Shown piece after piece: positions 492 through 6,594 of a DNA stretch of 44,974 nucleotides. Position 1 is the stretch's first letter. Every line of letters begins with the position of its first letter. This stretch comes from Myxococcota bacterium (GTDB lineage: Bacteria; Myxococcota_A; Polyangia; HGW-17): assembly GCA_018821745.1 (NCBI GenBank), contig JAHJLU010000383.1, positions 1-44,974 on the forward strand. Reading direction: 5' to 3'. Made by a program: the position numbers and the translations under genes. The notes below the pieces were generated by a model. It saw nothing but the letters and a program-made list of their open reading frames with translations, did not search any database and had not been told where the DNA came from.

Positions 492-2351
492 CTACAAAAA
501 GTCGTTGATCATTGCCTTGGGCATGGGATGTGGTCTGACCGGTCGCATACCCGGATTGACCATGACGGGAGGAACTGGTTTCACAGGCTTCATGGAGGCA
601 CCCACCTTGACCAGATTTACGAGCACCGGCATATCGAAGGCTGGGTAGAGTTTTTTCACCCAGGGGACAAATCCCGCGGCGGTCACCTTGATCTCAACGG
701 CGGTGATGTCACTTTTGGGGAGCTTGAAGATGGGTGTTTTGGAGACCTTCCCGTTGACCTCAATCACCGTCTCCACGTTGGGAGAGATTTGCAGCTGGAA
801 GGTGACGGTCTGGGGCAACACGGGCATGGGGGGAGCCATCTCGGGAGGATTGTTCACTAAATCATTTTTCATGACTGGGGGGCGGGTTGATGGAGCGATG
901 GTGTCTTCATCGGAGTCCCGCTGCCCGTAGTTGATATTAATCACGCCCGTGGGAATCAGCACCGCTGCCAGGAGCAGAACAGCCGCACCGATGATCAGGA
1001 TGATCTTTTTGCCGGAAGCTGCGGGGGCCAGCATGCTGGTGCTCCCCACATCGGAGATGGAGAACTTCTCCACCTCGGGGATGGTGGCACCGGCGATGAG
1101 CTTGGGAGAGAGATTGGATTCACTGGCCGCGAGGGTCTTTAGAATGGGGAGCAGCCGGCCTGAGAGCTCCTCGACGCTCCGTGGCCGGGACTCCTTCTCT
1201 TTTTTCAGACACCATAAAATTATTGCCTCGAGCTCGATATTGATTTCCACCAGCGCAGAGGGCAAATAGGGGGTCTGGGTGATATGGGCCTGTAAAATGG
1301 CCATGAAGGAGTCACCCTTGAAGGGGAGCCGCCCCGTGAACATTTCGTAGAGGATGATCCCCAGGGAGTAGATGTCACTGGCCGCATCGACAGACTGGCC
1401 CGCACACTGCTCTGGGCTCATATAGAAGGGTGTCCCGATGGGAACCCCTGTCTTTGTGTGCGAAGTGCGGAATCCGTCCTCGGTGAACTTGGCGATACCA
1501 AAATCCAGGAGCTTCACATAGTGATCTTCGTGGGGACGTTTCTCCAGGAAGATATTGTCGGGCTTGATGTCGCGGTGAATAATTCCTTTGTCGTGTGCCG
1601 CTCCGAGGGCCGACAGAATCTGCCTGAGGATCGTGTACGCCTCCAGGTACGGGACAACCTGAGTCTGCTTGATATAGGTGGTCAGGGTCTGCCCCTCGAG
1701 GTACTCCATGACGAAATATTGGGAGCCCTCTTCCATCTCGCCGAAGGAGAAAATATCGACGATGTTGGGATGGTGAATGGCGTTGACCGCTTTGGCCTCG
1801 GCCAGAAAGCGCCCCATCATGTCTTTATTTTCCGACAGGGAAGGCTTGAGAACCTTTATGGCTACACGTTTGCCAATGAGGGGATGGACGCCGCCGTAGA
1901 CAGAACCCATGCCACCGCTGCCCACAATACAGTTGACTTCGTATTCACCCACCCGGCGGCCAATCATCTCGTCCTGGATTTTCTTCACCTTGGTGATTTT
2001 CCGGTTGTCCTGGACGGTGAGGGAATCTTCGGGGTTGGGATCACTCTCCGCGGGGTCGACCACCCCGGGGGAGGAGGCATCCCGCAGATCGGGAGTGTTT
2101 GTGGAGATCCGGTTTTCACCCTGGGTACGCTCCCGCATTTCTTTCACAGGCGGGGGTGTTCCCATGAGGGTCCGCTGGTTGGCTACAGGGATCTCAAACC
2201 CGCATACACAGGCGTTTTCATTTTCTGAAATCTGGACGCCACATTCCGGGCATTTCATGGTCATGGCAGCAAAACCTGGGTTATTCTTTTCATGGCTCGG
2301 GGATTGTACCCCCGAATCTGCATGGACGTCAAGAACCTGGGAACAATTCAT
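492..2351 (-). CDS. Eukaryote-like Ser/Thr protein kinase: N-terminal zinc ribbon, one TM helix, PEGA-like extracytoplasmic C-terminal domain
   Basis: Kinase motifs: Gly-loop GSGGMGSVYGG, VAIKVLK lysine, catalytic loop HRDIKPDNIFL, DFGIAKF, GTPFYMSPEQ. Zinc ribbon CPECG...CVCG. TM segment IILIIGAAVLLLAAVLIPTGVI. The tail ISPNVETVIEVNGKVSKTPIFKL...IKVTAAGFVPW resembles a PEGA domain. The start is uncertain (ATG at 2351, 2264 or 2258; none has a clear SD). Confidence 0.9.
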   Translation of the reverse strand: MNCSQVLDVHADSGVQSPSHEKNNPGFAAMTMKCPECGVQISENENACVCGFEIPVANQRTLMGTPPPVKEMRERTQGENRISTNTPDLRDASSPGVVDPAESDPNPEDSLTVQDNRKITKVKKIQDEMIGRRVGEYEVNCIVGSGGMGSVYGGVHPLIGKRVAIKVLKPSLSENKDMMGRFLAEAKAVNAIHHPNIVDIFSFGEMEEGSQYFVMEYLEGQTLTTYIKQTQVVPYLEAYTILRQILSALGAAHDKGIIHRDIKPDNIFLEKRPHEDHYVKLLDFGIAKFTEDGFRTSHTKTGVPIGTPFYMSPEQCAGQSVDAASDIYSLGIILYEMFTGRLPFKGDSFMAILQAHITQTPYLPSALVEINIELEAIILWCLKKEKESRPRSVEELSGRLLPILKTLAASESNLSPKLIAGATIPEVEKFSISDVGSTSMLAPAASGKKIILIIGAAVLLLAAVLIPTGVININYGQRDSDEDTIAPSTRPPVMKNDLVNNPPEMAPPMPVLPQTVTFQLQISPNVETVIEVNGKVSKTPIFKLPKSDITAVEIKVTAAGFVPWVKKLYPAFDMPVLVNLVKVGASMKPVKPVPPVMVNPGMRPVRPHPMPKAMINDFL

Positions 2352-2441: not shown

Positions 2442-2924
2442 TTAATTTCCGTTCACTTTCCCCAACTTTTGTACCAACTTCTCTCTTCTGTTTTTTACGA
2501 GGGGGTCGGTGTCCGTTGTGTCCATTCGTGCGATCTCCGACCGGGCACTGAGAAAATCTCTGGCCCAATAGGCCAGCTCTCCCCGCCGGATCCGTTCCGC
2601 GGGTCCCAGGTTTCCCATCTCGACACTGACCCGGAGCAGGTGGCTGGTTTTGGGTTTGTCACCGTCCAGGTGGGCAATCTCTCCGTATATGGTGTAAAGA
2701 AGCCCGTCCCCCGGCGAGAGGGCCAGAAGGCCATCCATCAAGGTCCGCGCCTCACCCATACTACCATGGGCAGCCAGCAGAAGTGCCAGCGAGGCGGTAC
2801 CGTACAGTTCCTCCCCGGTCACCCCGAACAGCTCACCCAGAGTACTCTGCCGACTGGCGAGACTCTCGGCTCTGGCAATGATTTCATCATCCGTCATGTC
2901 CTGTCGCGGTATTCTTTTTTCCAT
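2442..2924 (-). CDS. Small TPR-like protein resembling class II type III secretion chaperones (LcrH/SycD/CesD type)
   Basis: About 160 aa and all-helical. The segment STLGELFGVTGEELYGTASLALLLAAHGSMGEARTLMDGLLALSPGD lines up with the LcrH region TIAMLNEISSDTLEQLYSLAFNQYQSGKYEDAHKVFQALCVLDHYD (recalled from memory). The track start at 2933 is GTG, overlapping the upstream stop as GTGA. ATG at 2924 lies 8-11 nt after AAGGG and is preferred. Confidence 0.55.
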   Translation of the reverse strand: MEKRIPRQDMTDDEIIARAESLASRQSTLGELFGVTGEELYGTASLALLLAAHGSMGEARTLMDGLLALSPGDGLLYTIYGEIAHLDGDKPKTSHLLRVSVEMGNLGPAERIRRGELAYWARDFLSARSEIARMDTTDTDPLVKNRREKLVQKLGKVNGN

Positions 2925-2929
2925 TTTAT

Positions 2930-3538
2930 TCACACCCTTATGTTCATAATGCTTGCTTTTTTAGTGGTATGCATGGCCTGAATCATGTTGGAGGCAGTGC
3001 TCTGCATCTGGTTTAGCCGCTGCATAAGGATCTGGATTCTATTCTCCACGTTCTGGGTGTTGGCCACCTGACTGGAGGTAGCCTGATTCTGCCCCGTGGA
3101 GGTACTTTTTGCCAATTTTCCCTGCTCCTTGAGGCAATCCTCGAGCTCACCCCTGATGGAATCACTCACCACACCGGCGATGAGAATAATCTTCTCCTCA
3201 ATGGAGTAGTTACCGTTGAGGATTGACTGAATTTTTGCCTGGGAATTATTGGAGGCTGCAGTGCCCCCACTGCCGGTGCTCTGGCTGGAATTCTGAAAAT
3301 CCTTATAGGAGTGTGCCTCATTGAAGGTCATGCCGGCCAGTTTTCCCAGGACCCCCGTAAGAAAGGGGGTAAAGGCCTGCATCCCCTGCATAAAGGGCAT
3401 GCCCCCGGCGGAACCCTGCCCCGAGAGGAACATGGAGAAGAGCATCCCCTGGGGAGACGAGGCACCCACGCCCATGATGGCAGCCTGCGAGATCATGGGG
3501 ATGGCAGTATTCAGGAAAGAACCAATATTGAAACTCAT
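2930..3538 (-). CDS. Secretion-substrate-like protein (202 aa): Gly/Met-rich hydrophobic N-half, S/T/N/Q-rich middle, C-terminal helix resembling T3SS needle/filament termini
   Basis: ATG at 3538 follows a strong SD (AAAGGAGTCACC-ATG), so the track start at 3598 is probably too long. There is a single Cys. The C-terminus SNMIQAMHTTKKASIMNIR aligns without gaps to the PrgI/MxiH-type terminus SNTVKVFKDIDAAIIQNFR (recalled). The stop overlaps or abuts the chaperone-like gene. Confidence 0.6.
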   Translation of the reverse strand: MSFNIGSFLNTAIPMISQAAIMGVGASSPQGMLFSMFLSGQGSAGGMPFMQGMQAFTPFLTGVLGKLAGMTFNEAHSYKDFQNSSQSTGSGGTAASNNSQAKIQSILNGNYSIEEKIILIAGVVSDSIRGELEDCLKEQGKLAKSTSTGQNQATSSQVANTQNVENRIQILMQRLNQMQSTASNMIQAMHTTKKASIMNIRV

Positions 3539-3652
3539 GGTGACTCCTTTCGGGCCAGGTATAATCCCCACGGGGAAGACGCGAAGGTAGAGGCCCATGT
3601 CCCTTCCGCTGAGATCCTTTTCTGCCCCTGCCGTTGTTTGTTGCGAAAAAAA

Positions 3653-5743
3653 TTATTTTTTCTGGTTTTCCAGGATCAACTTTTTCAAATTCTTGTATTT
3701 TTCGTTGTACGGCTGAACCAGGAGGGCGCGCTCGATTTCGTTGCTCGCCAGCTGGTGCATGCCAGAACGCAAAAAGAGCACCGCCCTGAGCCAGGCGAGA
3801 TGTGAAGAACGCTGAAAATGGGCCAGCGCCTCCTGGGAGCCTCGATAACTGAGCTCCGGGTAGACCCCGTAGCGGATGAGGATGTCGAGATATCCCAACC
3901 ACTGCTCGGGATTATCCCGGGCACTCTGGGCCCCTTTCTCGGCAAACACCCGCCCATTCTCCTGCCCTTTGGCGCGCCCGGCGGCCGCGAGTATGGCAAA
4001 AGCCCGGGCACTGTGCGAACCATAAAGGGAACGGGCGATGGTGTCGTAAACCTTGGTGAAGGTTGCACCTGCCGCAAGATGCAGTTCACCCAGCAAAATC
4101 CTGGATGTCAGGGCCGTTTCATCATTGCCCGATGCCAGCTTCTCCAGCGCGGCCATGGCACCGGGGAGACCCAGCGCCAGACGAAGTTTGGTTACAATCA
4201 GTCTCCCGCGGGAACTGAGCTTTGCCGTTGTGAGGGTCTTAACCAGCTCCGAGCCCAGGGAAAAAAGCCCATTGGAGACAAACCACTCAAGGCGCCCGAG
4301 GCTCTCATCCATCTCCGCCGGGGGCTCGTTGAGATCGGCCTTTCCCCGCTGGAATGAGGCAAGGACCATCAGACGGGTCACATCACCTGCCCCGGAATCC
4401 TGTGCCTCACGAAGGTAGGAGAGGGCCTCATCCCAGCGCTCCATTTCAAAAAGCGCCTTCCCCAGGGCATATTTCATGGAGGCGGGGGTCCCTTTGCGTT
4501 CATATTTCTGCATCAACTCCTGGGCGGCCCGGTAGCGCCGCATGCGACCAAGTTCCCAGATACGTTTGGCGAGGGGGGGGATGAGCGGCTCCACTTCCTT
4601 GATACCCCCAAAATATTTGGGCAACGCCCGAAATGCCGTAATGGTCTGGACAATGTCATTTTGGATAAAAGGGGGCAGCGTCCACCACAATGACCTGGCG
4701 ATGACCGGCAGGAACTGTTTGAGGAAGGCCCGTCCAAGGGGAGTTGAGGGGATATTTCCCACCTTGAGATCACCGGCGTACATTCGGGCGAAGTGAAATG
4801 CCCGGTAGTAAAAAGACCGGGCCAATGGAAAAGAACGCTGGTGGGGGGCTTCCAGTCGCTGGGCCCAGGTATGCCAGAATTCAAAGAGAAAACCCACGGT
4901 GTGAATCTGCCGGGACCAGGATGACTCCCCGAAATTGAGCTGGCCCATGGCCTCTTGGGCTTTGAGTATCTGCGCCGCCTCCCGTTCACCCTCTTTGTGA
5001 CGTCCCAGACCGGAGAAATAACTGCGGCAGGCCGACGCCGCCTTGGGAAACTCGTAGCGGAGAAGATACAGCAGGGTGAGAAAATATTTATGTTCCAGAT
5101 TTCTGCCGCGGGCCAGTTTCTTGATGACCACTCCGGCCTCTCGTCCACGGGTAATTGTGAGAGCCACAAGGGCGCTGTGGTAGGTCAGAATTTCCCGGGC
5201 GCTCAGGGAGTAGGGGAAGGTGGTGACCAGGTACCGCGCAAAGAAAGGATCGCTCCCCTTGATTCGCACGACCTTGTCCAGCGCCCGTGCACGGGCTTCG
5301 TCTGATGATGCATCCACATAGGAGAAGAAGTCCTCCGAGGGAGAGTGCATGGGAGCCGTGGGGAACCACGTGGCATAGGAGGAGGGACTCTTCAGAATTT
5401 CAATCTTGGGAGGCACGTCAAGGCTGAGACAGTCTCCCCAGGGGGAGAGGGGAGAGAGTGGCTGAAGCCGCCGTTCGAATATCCGCGCCAGGCGGGAATA
5501 CTTGTACAGGGCCTTTCTGTCGTAGAGATCGTGATGACGGGTCTCTCCCGAGGGCTGGGTCACCGTCAGGGTCCCAAATCTCGGCGCTCCACAACTTACA
5601 TACCCCCGGGGATCATCCCCGGCTGTGTTATACGCCTCAAAAATTTGCCTGGTCAGTTCCTTCTCTTTGCCCAGAGAGACAATTTTGGGTTCCCCTTTCT
5701 CCACGGCGTGAAGGTAGGTCAAATGCCCGTCGGGCTTCACCAT
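3653..5743 (-). CDS. Large hypothetical protein (696 aa) with a TPR-like helical-repeat C-terminal half
   Basis: Long ORF with ordinary composition, on the same strand as its neighbours and tightly spaced. Helical repeats such as YALGKALFEMERWDEALSYLREAQ. No catalytic motif recognised. Confidence 0.7.
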   Translation of the reverse strand: MVKPDGHLTYLHAVEKGEPKIVSLGKEKELTRQIFEAYNTAGDDPRGYVSCGAPRFGTLTVTQPSGETRHHDLYDRKALYKYSRLARIFERRLQPLSPLSPWGDCLSLDVPPKIEILKSPSSYATWFPTAPMHSPSEDFFSYVDASSDEARARALDKVVRIKGSDPFFARYLVTTFPYSLSAREILTYHSALVALTITRGREAGVVIKKLARGRNLEHKYFLTLLYLLRYEFPKAASACRSYFSGLGRHKEGEREAAQILKAQEAMGQLNFGESSWSRQIHTVGFLFEFWHTWAQRLEAPHQRSFPLARSFYYRAFHFARMYAGDLKVGNIPSTPLGRAFLKQFLPVIARSLWWTLPPFIQNDIVQTITAFRALPKYFGGIKEVEPLIPPLAKRIWELGRMRRYRAAQELMQKYERKGTPASMKYALGKALFEMERWDEALSYLREAQDSGAGDVTRLMVLASFQRGKADLNEPPAEMDESLGRLEWFVSNGLFSLGSELVKTLTTAKLSSRGRLIVTKLRLALGLPGAMAALEKLASGNDETALTSRILLGELHLAAGATFTKVYDTIARSLYGSHSARAFAILAAAGRAKGQENGRVFAEKGAQSARDNPEQWLGYLDILIRYGVYPELSYRGSQEALAHFQRSSHLAWLRAVLFLRSGMHQLASNEIERALLVQPYNEKYKNLKKLILENQKK

Positions 5744-5814: not shown

Positions 5815-6594
5815 TCAGGGGAGTGGAAAAAAGAAAAACACAGAAAAAAAAATCACGGGCATGAAAAACTCACCGGACTTGAGTCGGCGCAGGAATTCCC
5901 GCAAGAGCGAAAAATTCCCTTTCTCCCGGGACATGAAGGCGATGCCATAGAGATCCTCGGAGGGCTTGTTTTTGACCTCTGCTAAAAAAGAGACCGGCCG
6001 AACACCACCGGGGACCGTGATCTCCAGAAAAATTTTTTCACCCACCAGATCGTTGCCGCCTTTTGTACGCATGCGGGCACCCCCTTCGGCAATATCGAGG
6101 AGGATAGCATCGTGATAAACGGCGGTCTCGATAATGCGAAACCGGATGGGAAGTTCCACACTGAGCCGTGGATGCTTGCGTCTTTTTTCCGGTTTTGAGA
6201 TCCCCTGTTCAAAAAGACCAACAAGATAGAGCACCTTCTCCAGCTCGTCGGTTTCAACCAGGACAAGGGCACCGCCACGAATCCCTCTGCGGGGCACGGG
6301 TCGCCGAAAAGAGATGACCGAGCCCCTGACGAGGGTCTTGTCGTGAACGGATGGAATATGCAATTCCACAATGATTTCCTGCCCTATGGAGAGTTCCTGC
6401 ACCGTAGGACAGAAGAGGTGGTTATCGTCACCGTTCCAGGCATCAAGAAATTCTTCGGTGTTGAGGTAATTGGCGCGCAGATAATTCATTACTTTTGAGG
6501 GATACCAGATTTTGCCTTTCTTCTCAAAGTCAAAATGTAGCGGGTCCCAAAAAAGCACCGATTTTCCAGCAAAAAAATAAAACCATTGATTCAA
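5815..6594 (-). CDS. PilZ-domain (c-di-GMP receptor) protein
   Basis: RRKHPR (RxxxR) followed by LDIAEGGARM (D/NxSxxG-type) at the usual spacing. An upstream beta-rich region looks like a degenerate second PilZ-like barrel. The track start at 6594 is TTG; ATG at 6489 is an alternative. The 3' end is T-tract rich. Confidence 0.75.
   Translation of the reverse strand: MNQWFYFFAGKSVLFWDPLHFDFEKKGKIWYPSKVMNYLRANYLNTEEFLDAWNGDDNHLFCPTVQELSIGQEIIVELHIPSVHDKTLVRGSVISFRRPVPRRGIRGGALVLVETDELEKVLYLVGLFEQGISKPEKRRKHPRLSVELPIRFRIIETAVYHDAILLDIAEGGARMRTKGGNDLVGEKIFLEITVPGGVRPVSFLAEVKNKPSEDLYGIAFMSREKGNFSLLREFLRRLKSGEFFMPVIFFSVFFFFPLP

What the first reader, a model, noticed from the sequence alone, without database searches (positions are those of the whole stretch)
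2930..3538. 202-aa protein whose last 19 residues mimic a type III secretion needle/filament C-terminus
Seen directly:
- A strong SD precedes ATG 3538.
- Only one Cys.
- A Gly/Met-rich hydrophobic N-half (GMLFSMFLSGQGSAGGMPFMQGMQAFTPFLTGVLGKLAG) and a S/T/N/Q-rich centre.
- The terminal helix is ...LNQMQSTASNMIQAMHTTKKASIMNIRV.

Comparison (recalled, established family):
- PrgI/MxiH needles end ...SNTVKVFKDIDAAIIQNFR.
- The two align without gaps at SN, at the hydrophobic positions, and at A13, I15, N17 and R19.

The size is closer to EspA-type filament proteins than to ~80-aa needles. No T3SS apparatus gene is present in the window.
Basis: partly seen in the sequence, partly recalled or inferred. 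Interest (0 to 1): 0.6.

Follow-up and report, generated by a model that had tools for sequence, protein, structure and literature searches.

The report
Needle-tailed secretion substrate with its chaperone
This 202-residue protein and the small gene after it look like a cargo-and-chaperone pair of a type III secretion machine, in a bacterial group (Myxococcota) whose machines of this type are described as lacking needle and pore-forming parts.

Summary
P0001 itself hits no Pfam, NCBIfam or PDB entry. It belongs to an unnamed family defined by a C-terminal two-helix domain that always ends the protein (…SN……H.T….I.NIR[V]).

Three results tie this family to type III secretion (T3SS):
- **Operon position.** Distant members that share the whole domain (hhalign E 5e-14) head complete T3SS operons, each followed by a SycD/LcrH-type chaperone.
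- **Needle-like last helix.** The last helix is homologous (hhalign E 9e-13) to that of 79-87-aa proteins sitting in the needle (SctF) slot of those operons. A profile of that helix finds only T3SS needle or tip entries in the PDB (3 of 3, best E 0.003).
- **Chaperone fold.** The downstream protein P0002 folds (pLDDT 89) as a class II translocator chaperone; its top 18 Foldseek hits are SycD, IpgC, AcrH, Scc3.

The same genome encodes SctV, U, R, S, T, J and N, plus a separate SctF-like protein, all on other contigs.

P0001 is therefore most likely a T3SS-exported tip- or translocator-like protein, not the needle itself. Export has not been shown.

The parts
2930..3538 (-). P0001 coding sequence: 202 aa plus the TGA stop. 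It belongs to an unnamed family of T3SS-linked proteins.
   Evidence: 13 homologues. One search found 51 proteins with the A1 profile, all matched at their extreme C-terminus.
3544..3550 (-). Shine-Dalgarno sequence AAAGGAG, 5 nt upstream of ATG 3538.
   Evidence: Read directly from the sequence.
3652..3679 (-). Promoter-like site (TTGATC-16-AATAAT) about 115 nt upstream of the start. This is a consensus match only.
3344..3538 (-). Residues 1-65: an uncharged Gly/Met/Phe/Ser-rich N-terminal half with the conserved start MSFNIGS. It has no Sec-type signal. It is a candidate for the secretion signal, the chaperone-binding region or a membrane-active segment.
   Evidence: the first charged residue is K66 and the maximum Kyte-Doolittle value over 19 residues is 1.28; the character of the region is conserved but the sequence is not; pLDDT is below 50.
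2933..3253 (-). Residues 96-202: the conserved C-terminal two-helix domain (alpha1 ...ILNGNYSIEEKIILIAGVVSDS..., a low-complexity loop, then alpha2).
   Evidence: invariant columns. (helices 113-147 and 155-201, pLDDT 70-82). (hhalign against members encoded in T3SS operons: 98.2%, E 5.3e-14, 101 columns).
2936..3076 (-). Residues 155-201: the needle-like terminal helix (…QNVENRIQILMQRLNQMQSTASNMIQAMHTTKKASIMNIR).
   Evidence: hhalign against proteins in the SctF slot, E 8.9e-13. (the only PDB hits are a 7y6c needle-complex chain at E 0.0026, a tip protein, and a PrgI-SipD fusion)..
2442..2924 (-). P0002: a 160-aa TPR protein that starts 5 nt after the P0001 stop. It is a divergent class II (SycD/LcrH/IpgC-type) T3SS chaperone.
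   Evidence: AF2 pLDDT 88.7. (the top 18 Foldseek hits are SycD, IpgC, AcrH, Scc3). (hhalign E 1.2e-9 to a partner family whose best NCBIfam hit is TIGR02552). (phmmer E 6.5e-9 with the chaperone of the L049 operon).
492..2351 (-). Context: a zinc-ribbon Ser/Thr protein kinase downstream, conserved next to the pair in a relative.
   Evidence: Pkinase, E 3.5e-53. (same gene order in L004).
3653..5743 (-). Context: a 696-aa protein with one TPR stretch, upstream and conserved in L004.
5815..6594 (-). Context: a PilZ-domain protein at the head of the co-directional gene row.

Best explanation
[quoted passage not shown] It is a tip- or translocator-like 'needle extension' protein, and P0002 is its dedicated class II (SycD/LcrH-type) TPR chaperone.

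**Proposed mechanism**
- In the cytoplasm, P0002 binds P0001. The binding site is probably the uncharged N-terminal half, including the conserved P-x-L-rich segment around residues 58-69. This keeps P0001 soluble and unpolymerised.
- The SctRSTUV gate, with SctN, exports P0001.
- Outside the cell, the C-terminal helical hairpin docks onto the distal end of the needle polymer or continues it. Its last helix copies the needle subunit's C-terminal helix. The needle subunit itself is probably the SctF-like protein encoded at C519:7697-8083.
- The Gly/Met/Phe-rich N-terminal half provides the flexible or membrane-active part. In larger relatives a Gly-zipper hydrophobic loop between the two helices takes this place.

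**What is shown**
- The family exists and its tail is conserved.
- The two-helix domain is homologous to proteins encoded in T3SS operons.
- The last helix is homologous to that of proteins in the SctF slot.
- P0002 has a class II chaperone fold.
- T3SS core genes are present in the genome.

**What is inferred**
- Export of P0001.
- Binding of P0001 by P0002.
- Docking on the needle.
- Any membrane activity.
For: **Family and tail**
- The family is conserved and NIRV is invariant.
- All 51 profile hits match at their extreme C-terminus.

**Link to T3SS operons**
- hhalign of A1 against members in T3SS operons gives 98.2%, E 5.3e-14, and covers both helices.
- Those members, P0054 and P0039, sit at the head of operons with this order: [member][SycD-like TPR][~90 aa][82-86-aa needle-slot protein][HrpB1/YscG-like TPR][SctI][SctJ][SctL][SctN][SctO][SctP][FHA-SctD/Q][FliO][SctR][SctS][SctT].

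**Needle-like last helix**
- hhalign against the needle-slot proteins gives E 8.9e-13.
- The L046 needle-slot protein scores 21.3 bits against the family HMM. SctI, used as a control, scores -0.9 bits.
- PDB hits of the helix profile are T3SS needle or tip entries only.
- Three of 46 members touch PF09392.

**P0002**
- The AF2 model has pLDDT 88.7.
- The Foldseek top hits are all class II chaperones.
- There is a profile link to partner proteins that hit TIGR02552.

**Genome**
- SctV, U, J, R, S, T and N are present.
- An SctF-like gene is present.
- No flagellin was found.

**Co-occurrence in the phylum sample**
- 45 of 46 genomes with the domain also have FHIPEP, against 176 of 301 overall.

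**N-terminus**
- There is no Sec signal and no charged residue in the first 65 residues.
Against: - P0001 itself has no hit in Pfam, NCBIfam or the PDB.
- P0002 itself has no TIGR02552 hit.
- Direct similarity to canonical needles is marginal. A designed helical bundle scored as well as the needles did.
- The needle-slot proteins (A7) do not hit PF09392 or PDB needles. Their SctF label therefore rests on size and gene order.
- The P0001 locus lies among PilZ, TPR and Ser/Thr kinase genes, not T3SS genes. In complete relatives the pair lies far from sctV.
- The genome's T3SS genes are scattered on short contigs. I did not search for a secretin, and the genome is 77% complete.
- No hydrophobic stretch reaches a typical transmembrane score.
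- Genome co-occurrence is confounded by relatedness. One genome with the domain, G134, has no FHIPEP hit.
Confidence: 0.6

Rival explanations
1. P0001 is itself the polymerising filament or needle-sheath subunit, like EspA, SseB or Bsp22. It would build an extension on the needle by homopolymerisation and would not act at a membrane.
For: - Its size (202 aa) is in the EspA range.
- The predicted fold is a helical hairpin.
- The last helix is needle-like.
- One family member touches Pfam EspA at E 0.0038.
- A5 profile hits include the C-terminal helix of the SipD/IpaD tip proteins.
Against: - The chaperone is of the class II translocator type, not the CesAB, SseA or YscE/G type.
- P0001 has no EspA profile hit.
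- Larger relatives carry Gly-zipper hydrophobic loops that suggest membrane insertion.
- Polymerisation could not be modelled with the tools at hand.
Confidence: 0.17
2. The pair has nothing to do with secretion. It is a cytoplasmic helical protein with a TPR partner, working as a scaffold or regulator in the PilZ / Ser-Thr kinase signalling row. On this view the resemblance to T3SS parts reflects shared ancestry or helical composition only.
For: - The neighbourhood with PilZ, a 700-aa protein and a zinc-ribbon kinase is conserved in L004. A kinase is also adjacent in L005.
- Zinc-ribbon proteins lie near the f16 members.
- No T3SS gene lies next to the pair in this genome or in complete relatives.
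- Class II chaperones are known to double as transcription co-activators (established knowledge: IpgC-MxiE, SicA-InvF).
Against: - The same two-helix domain and the same chaperone type sit inside full T3SS operons.
- The extreme C-terminus is conserved as in axial T3SS proteins.
- 45 of 46 genomes with the domain have an export gate.
- T3SS substrates and their chaperones are commonly encoded away from the apparatus (established knowledge).
Confidence: 0.15
3. P0001 is an exported regulator of the FlgM or YopD type. Its secretion through the T3SS would report assembly state and release P0002 or a sigma factor to change transcription.
For: - Sigma-factor genes lie directly upstream of the member in L046.
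- An ECF sigma/anti-sigma pair lies beside the SctF-like gene on C519.
- Class II chaperone-translocator pairs are known to act in feedback regulation (established knowledge: LcrH-YopD).
Against: - No sigma factor lies at the P0001 locus.
- The needle-like terminal helix is more easily explained by a structural docking role.
- This role is not exclusive of the main explanation.
Confidence: 0.08

Closest known systems
Hydrophobic T3SS translocators with their class II chaperones (YopD/PopD/IpaC/AopB with SycD/PcrH/IpgC/AcrH)
   Same: - The substrate gene is adjacent to a ~160-aa three-TPR chaperone whose predicted fold best matches SycD, IpgC, AcrH and PcrH.
- The N-terminus has no Sec signal.
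- There is a hydrophobic or uncharged segment and a C-terminal amphipathic helix.
- Relatives sit in T3SS operons.
   Different: - No profile match to the YopD, IpaC/SipC, EspB or SseC families.
- Much shorter (202 aa).
- The chaperone gene follows the substrate gene rather than preceding it.
- No segment reaches a transmembrane score.
- The last helix resembles the needle subunit, which is not a described feature of the known translocators.
T3SS needle subunit SctF (PrgI/MxiH/YscF; Pfam PF09392)
   Same: - The C-terminal helix carries the pattern SN…(F/H)….I.N(F/I)R at the very end of the protein.
- The fold is a helical hairpin.
- The helix is homologous to that of needle-slot proteins of related operons.
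- Family members have sub-threshold PF09392 hits.
   Different: - More than twice as long, with a 95-residue N-terminal extension.
- P0001 has no PF09392 hit.
- The first helix is not alignable with the needle-slot proteins (one search aligned only 36 columns).
- The chaperone is class II, not YscE/YscG type.
- The genome has a separate SctF-like gene.
Needle tip and filament proteins (SipD/IpaD/BipD; EspA/SseB/Bsp22)
   Same: - Weak profile matches fall on the C-terminal helix of SipD, IpaD and a Chromobacterium tip protein.
- The size is similar to EspA.
- The idea that a hairpin mimics the needle in order to sit on it is established knowledge for the tip proteins.
   Different: - All E-values are between 0.09 and 6.
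- There is no globular tip domain.
- The chaperone type differs.
'Needleless' T3SS* of Myxococcus xanthus and Bradymonadia
   Same: - Same phylum-level setting.
- The apparatus genes are scattered or reduced.
- The literature states that needle, secretin and translocon are missing (PMC12075869, PMC3459982, PMC11509652).
   Different: - Here, and in 54 of 301 sampled genomes of the phylum, an SctF-like protein is present. A translocator-like protein with its chaperone is also present.
- I did not test whether M. xanthus itself carries them.

Membership tests
T3SS needle subunit SctF (PF09392 T3SS_needle_F) | Profile match above the Pfam gathering score | tested here: not met
   P0001 has no hit at E<=1. 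Three of 46 family members hit below the cut-off; the best is 26 bits against a cut-off of 29.4, E 1e-5.
T3SS needle subunit SctF (PF09392 T3SS_needle_F) | Small size (about 70-90 aa) consisting of a single helical hairpin | tested here: not met
   P0001 is 202 aa. The hairpin occupies only residues ~113-201.
T3SS needle subunit SctF (PF09392 T3SS_needle_F) | Conserved C-terminal helix that ends the protein | tested here: met
   hhalign against needle-slot proteins gives 97.8%, E 8.9e-13. The helix profile hits only needle or tip entries in the PDB.
T3SS needle subunit SctF (PF09392 T3SS_needle_F) | Gene lies between a small co-chaperone and a YscG/HrpB1-like TPR gene, upstream of sctI and sctJ | tested here: not met
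   That slot is held by the 79-87-aa A7 family. P0001 lies among PilZ, TPR and kinase genes.
Hydrophobic translocators (SctB/SctE: YopD, IpaC/SipC, EspB, SseC families) | Profile match to a translocator family | tested here: not met
   No such Pfam or NCBIfam hit for P0001, and none among 46 relatives at E<=0.01.
Hydrophobic translocators (SctB/SctE: YopD, IpaC/SipC, EspB, SseC families) | Adjacent class II TPR chaperone | tested here: met
   The P0002 model has pLDDT 88.7, and its top 18 Foldseek hits are SycD, IpgC, AcrH and Scc3. It links by profile to partner proteins that hit TIGR02552.
Hydrophobic translocators (SctB/SctE: YopD, IpaC/SipC, EspB, SseC families) | Transmembrane or hydrophobic segment | tested here: inconclusive
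   There are 65 uncharged residues, but the maximum Kyte-Doolittle value over 19 residues is 1.28. Larger relatives have Gly-zipper hydrophobic loops.
Hydrophobic translocators (SctB/SctE: YopD, IpaC/SipC, EspB, SseC families) | Genomic linkage to a T3SS and export by it | tested here: inconclusive
   Linkage is shown for distant relatives but not for P0001. The genome does have the export gate. Export cannot be tested with these tools.
EspA-like filament proteins (PF03433) | Profile match above the gathering score | tested here: not met
   P0001 has no hit. One of 46 relatives hits at E 0.0038.
EspA-like filament proteins (PF03433) | Self-polymerisation into a hollow filament | not testable with these tools
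SycD/LcrH class II chaperones (TIGR02552), for P0002 | Profile match to TIGR02552 | tested here: not met
   P0002 has no hit at E<=0.1, and its closest relative's partner reaches only E 0.028. Partners of distant members reach E 2.6e-21, still below the 104.8-bit cut-off.
SycD/LcrH class II chaperones (TIGR02552), for P0002 | All-helical three-TPR fold of about 150 aa that resembles solved class II chaperones more than other TPR proteins | tested here: met
   Foldseek ranks 1-18 are all class II chaperones. SycD (2vgx) scores E 3e-4 with TM 0.70.

The most novel reading that the evidence does not exclude
P0001-type proteins, together with the SctF-like family found here, are the missing needle and translocon parts of the T3SS of predatory Myxococcota. 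They would be encoded away from the apparatus as substrate-chaperone pairs. The short, uncharged, needle-tailed P0001 type would be a new kind of translocator aimed at bacterial prey envelopes rather than eukaryotic membranes.
Probability: 0.22. Interest if true: 0.82.

Novelty: new variant of a known kind. Interest (0 to 1): 0.6.

Why it matters
**The open question.** T3SSs of Myxococcota are described as 'needleless' and as lacking a translocon (PMC12075869, PMC3459982, PMC11509652). How they deliver lytic effectors into prey is an open question.

**What this locus adds.** It led to two unnamed families:
- A needle-slot SctF-like family, found in 54 of 301 sampled genomes of the phylum.
- A family of larger proteins with the same terminal helix, each paired with a class II chaperone.

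Some of these genes lie inside full T3SS operons and others are dispersed.

**If the proteins are exported.**
- The 'needleless' label would not hold for many lineages of the phylum.
- The proteins would give concrete genes to delete and to localise.
- They would show how a tip or translocator can be built from a copy of the needle's docking helix.

**Practical value.** The domain has no Pfam model, so it is currently invisible to annotation.

Tried and rejected
**Searches that found nothing for P0001**
- Pfam and NCBIfam gave only weak coiled-coil noise.
- The A1 profile against the PDB gave nothing.
- Foldseek of the full-length AF2 model gave only generic helical hits. The model's mean pLDDT is 57 because the N-terminal half is disordered.

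**Readings considered and rejected**
- **A flagellar link.** No flagellin was found, and SctJ is of the short injectisome type.
- **Flagellar rod/hook C-terminal motif.** Pfam gave no such hit.
- **P0001 as the needle proper.** Rejected on size, gene position, chaperone type and the presence of a separate SctF-like gene.

**Tests that gave limited or negative results**
- **Canonical SctF in the phylum.** PF09392 reached its cut-off in none of 301 genomes. The sub-threshold hits turned out to be SctI or family members.
- **Proximity to sctV in complete relatives.** The genes are not close.
- **P0002 homologue search by word index.** It found only three proteins.
- **Needle-slot family A7 against the PDB and Pfam.** No needle hit.

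**Not available or not done**
- I did not search for a secretin.
- I did not resolve the GTDB class of the genome.

Full report
**1. The observation**

Window 2930-3538 (- strand) encodes a 202-aa protein, P0001.
- AAAGGAG lies 5 nt before the ATG.
- There is one Cys.
- Residues 1-65 have no charged residue and are rich in Gly, Met, Phe, Ser and Ala. The highest Kyte-Doolittle mean over 19 residues is 1.28, below a typical transmembrane value. There is no Sec-type signal.
- The tail is ...SNMIQAMHTTKKASIMNIRV.

P0002 (2442-2924, 160 aa) starts 5 nt after the P0001 stop. The neighbours on the same strand are:
- a PilZ protein (5815-6594);
- a 696-aa protein with one TPR stretch (3653-5743);
- a zinc-ribbon Ser/Thr kinase (492-2351).

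**2. No direct database match, but a real family**

P0001 hits nothing meaningful in Pfam, NCBIfam or the PDB.

A search of 5.8 billion proteins found 12 homologues of 191-222 aa. None carries a functional name; two are labelled only 'hypothetical protein'.
- Their N-terminal halves keep the same character but not the same sequence.
- Residues ~96-202 are strongly conserved, and NIRV is invariant.

Genome records place the relatives in Myxococcota-type MAGs: Haliangium, Kofleriaceae, Polyangia and 'Deltaproteobacteria bacterium'.

AlphaFold2 gives a disordered N-terminal half and a helical hairpin. The helices are 113-147 and 155-201, with pLDDT 70-82. Foldseek on this model was uninformative.

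**3. A wider family anchored at the C-terminus**

A profile search of 1.84 billion representatives found 51 proteins of 65-438 aa. All match at their extreme C-terminus. They share two helices:
- alpha1: ILNDPsLSlEEKIalL...
- alpha2: ...lQ.LMQk..qM...SN.mk..HdT....I.NIR(V)

Some carry a Gly-zipper hydrophobic loop between the two helices.

Scanned one by one against Pfam, 3 of 46 touch T3SS_needle_F. The best hit is E 1e-5 at 26 bits, against a cut-off of 29.4, and it aligns end to end with the C-terminus. One member touches EspA.

**4. Link to T3SS operons**

Two distant members, P0054 (locus L046) and P0039 (loci L049/L050, NCBI GCA_027078235.1), head complete T3SS operons with this gene order:

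[member][SycD-like TPR][~90 aa][82-86-aa protein][HrpB1/YscG-like TPR][SctI][SctJ][..][SctL][SctN][SctO][SctP][FHA-SctD/Q][FliO][SctR][SctS][SctT]

- L046 carries a second member (348 aa) with its own chaperone.
- The close P0001 family aligns to these operon members over both helices (hhalign 98.2%, E 5.3e-14, 101 columns).
- Another member, P0041, occurs as a free-standing pair among housekeeping genes, as P0001 does.

**5. The needle-like helix**

The 82-86-aa proteins sit where yscF sits in the Yersinia yscE-F-G-(H)-I-J order (established knowledge). They end ...SNIMKARHDSAINAIRNFR.

| Test | Result |
|---|---|
| Needle-slot family A7 vs the P0001-type core A5 (hhalign) | 97.8%, E 8.9e-13, 36 columns (last helix only) |
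| L046 needle-slot protein vs the A5 HMM | 21.3 bits |
| SctI control vs the A5 HMM | -0.9 bits |
| A5 profile vs the PDB | 13 of 25 hits at E<=10 are T3SS needle or tip entries; a designed helical bundle scores best |
| Last-helix profile A9 vs the PDB | 3 hits at E<=10, all T3SS |

The three hits of the last-helix profile are:
- a 43-residue chain of 7y6c, a needle/chaperone complex (E 0.0026);
- a Chromobacterium tip protein (E 1);
- a PrgI-SipD fusion (E 5.7), in which the PrgI tail and the SipD C-terminal helix both align.

Two caveats apply. The A7 proteins themselves hit neither PF09392 nor PDB needles, so their SctF label rests on size and gene order. The depositors' name for chain F of 7y6c is that of the co-chaperone family, so I treat its identity as uncertain.

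**6. The partner protein**

- P0002 has only a weak TPR hit in Pfam and no TIGR02552 hit.
- Partners of distant members hit TIGR02552 (LcrH_SycD) as their best or near-best NCBIfam family over its full length, with E from 2e-6 to 2.6e-21, all below the trusted cut-off.
- Their profile matches IpgC end to end.
- The P0002 family aligns to them (hhalign 96.4%, E 1.2e-9).
- The chaperone of the L049 operon finds P0002 directly (phmmer E 6.5e-9).
- The AF2 model of P0002 is confident (pLDDT 88.7).
- The first 18 Foldseek hits in the PDB are all class II T3SS translocator chaperones: SycD, IpgC, AcrH and Scc3. PcrH follows at rank 20. These rank ahead of generic TPR proteins.

**7. The genome**

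The genome is a 4.96-Mb MAG, 77% complete.

| Gene | Location |
|---|---|
| SctV | C176 |
| SctU | C663 |
| SctJ (short form, 285 aa) | C107 |
| SctR, SctS, SctT and FliO | C567 and C4 |
| SctN | C665 |

- These genes are scattered and are not in one classical cluster.
- No flagellin and no canonical PF09392 needle were found.
- A second protein with the terminal helix exists at C519:7697-8083 (~129 aa). It belongs to the needle-slot family.

**8. Distribution in the phylum sample**

| Feature | Genomes with a hit (of 301) |
|---|---|
| PF09392 above its cut-off | 0 |
| FHIPEP | 176 |
| SctF-like family A7 | 54, all FHIPEP-positive |
| A5 domain | 46, of which 45 are FHIPEP-positive (the exception is G134) |

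- These counts are not independent, because related genomes share features.
- In one family (f16), the SctF-like gene is followed by a YscG/HrpB1-like TPR gene.
- In G225 the order is [TPR][SctF-like][SctI].
- In complete genomes the P0001-type pair lies far from sctV.

**9. Reading**

- The pair is best explained as a T3SS substrate with its class II chaperone.
- The substrate keeps a copy of the needle subunit's docking helix, as tip proteins do (established knowledge for SipD and IpaD).
- It carries an uncharged, flexible N-terminal half.
- It is not the needle itself.
- Whether it forms a filament, a tip or a membrane-inserting translocator cannot be decided here.
- Export, chaperone binding and needle docking are all inferences.
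- The link to the neighbouring PilZ and kinase genes is unexplained. The FHA domain in the SctD/Q protein of the reference operon makes regulation by phosphorylation a reasonable idea, but I did not test it.

**10. Literature**

Papers on Myxococcus and Bradymonadia describe their T3SS* as lacking needle, secretin and translocon (PMC12075869, PMC3459982, PMC11509652). A search for Myxococcota together with SctF or translocon found no description of these families.

**11. Limits**

- No multimer prediction was available.
- I did not search for a secretin.
- The exact taxonomic class of the MAG was not determined.

**Earlier notes from this scan.** I tested the first claim and it holds. The second remains untested apart from its conservation in L004.

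Noticed in passing
Own genome, contig C519:7697-8083 (- strand; locus L059): A ~129-aa protein ending ...SMDYLKLQVELQEENRRFSTLSNMEKARHDTAKAAINNIRI. It belongs to the family that fills the needle (SctF) slot in related T3SS operons. It lies beside an ECF sigma/anti-sigma pair, and a 107-aa helical ORF follows it.
   Followed up: partly
Own genome, contigs C176, C663, C107, C567, C4, C665: The T3SS core genes (SctV, U, J, R, S, T, N and FliO) are scattered. SctV stands alone between unrelated genes. SctJ is followed by a 720-aa rhomboid-like fusion protein and V-type ATPase genes.
   Followed up: partly
L046:8528-8788 and L049:2398-2646: Needle-slot proteins of 82-86 aa (ending ...AIRNFR or ...AIRNVK) have no Pfam or PDB match. 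This divergent SctF-like family occurs in 54 of 301 sampled genomes of a phylum described as having needleless T3SS.
   Followed up: partly
L042 (G176:C1:224000-226000) and L044 (G013): In one family of complete genomes the P0001-type gene is tandemly duplicated. It is followed by a TPR chaperone, a ~680-aa secreted protein and a ~670-700-aa protein. That last protein has an N-terminal zinc ribbon and a C-terminal ...RGGGGDNIG motif that looks like a PP2C phosphatase. This parallels the zinc-ribbon kinase in the window.
   Followed up: no
L049:8548-10062: A 504-aa protein combines FHA, YscD-like and FliMN_C (SctQ-like) domains. An FHA domain in the T3SS basal body could link it to the Ser/Thr kinases found next to the substrate pairs.
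   Followed up: no
window 3653-5743 (- strand): A 696-aa protein with only one TPR stretch recognisable. It is conserved upstream of the pair in L004, and its function is unknown.
   Followed up: no
L046:5506-6183: A sigma-70 family factor is encoded directly upstream of the T3SS-operon member P0054, which suggests dedicated transcriptional control of the substrate genes.
   Followed up: no
G134:C12:7672-7809: The only sampled genome with an A5-type domain hit (E 2.9e-6, 427-aa frame) but no FHIPEP hit. It is a possible exception to the link with T3SS.
   Followed up: no
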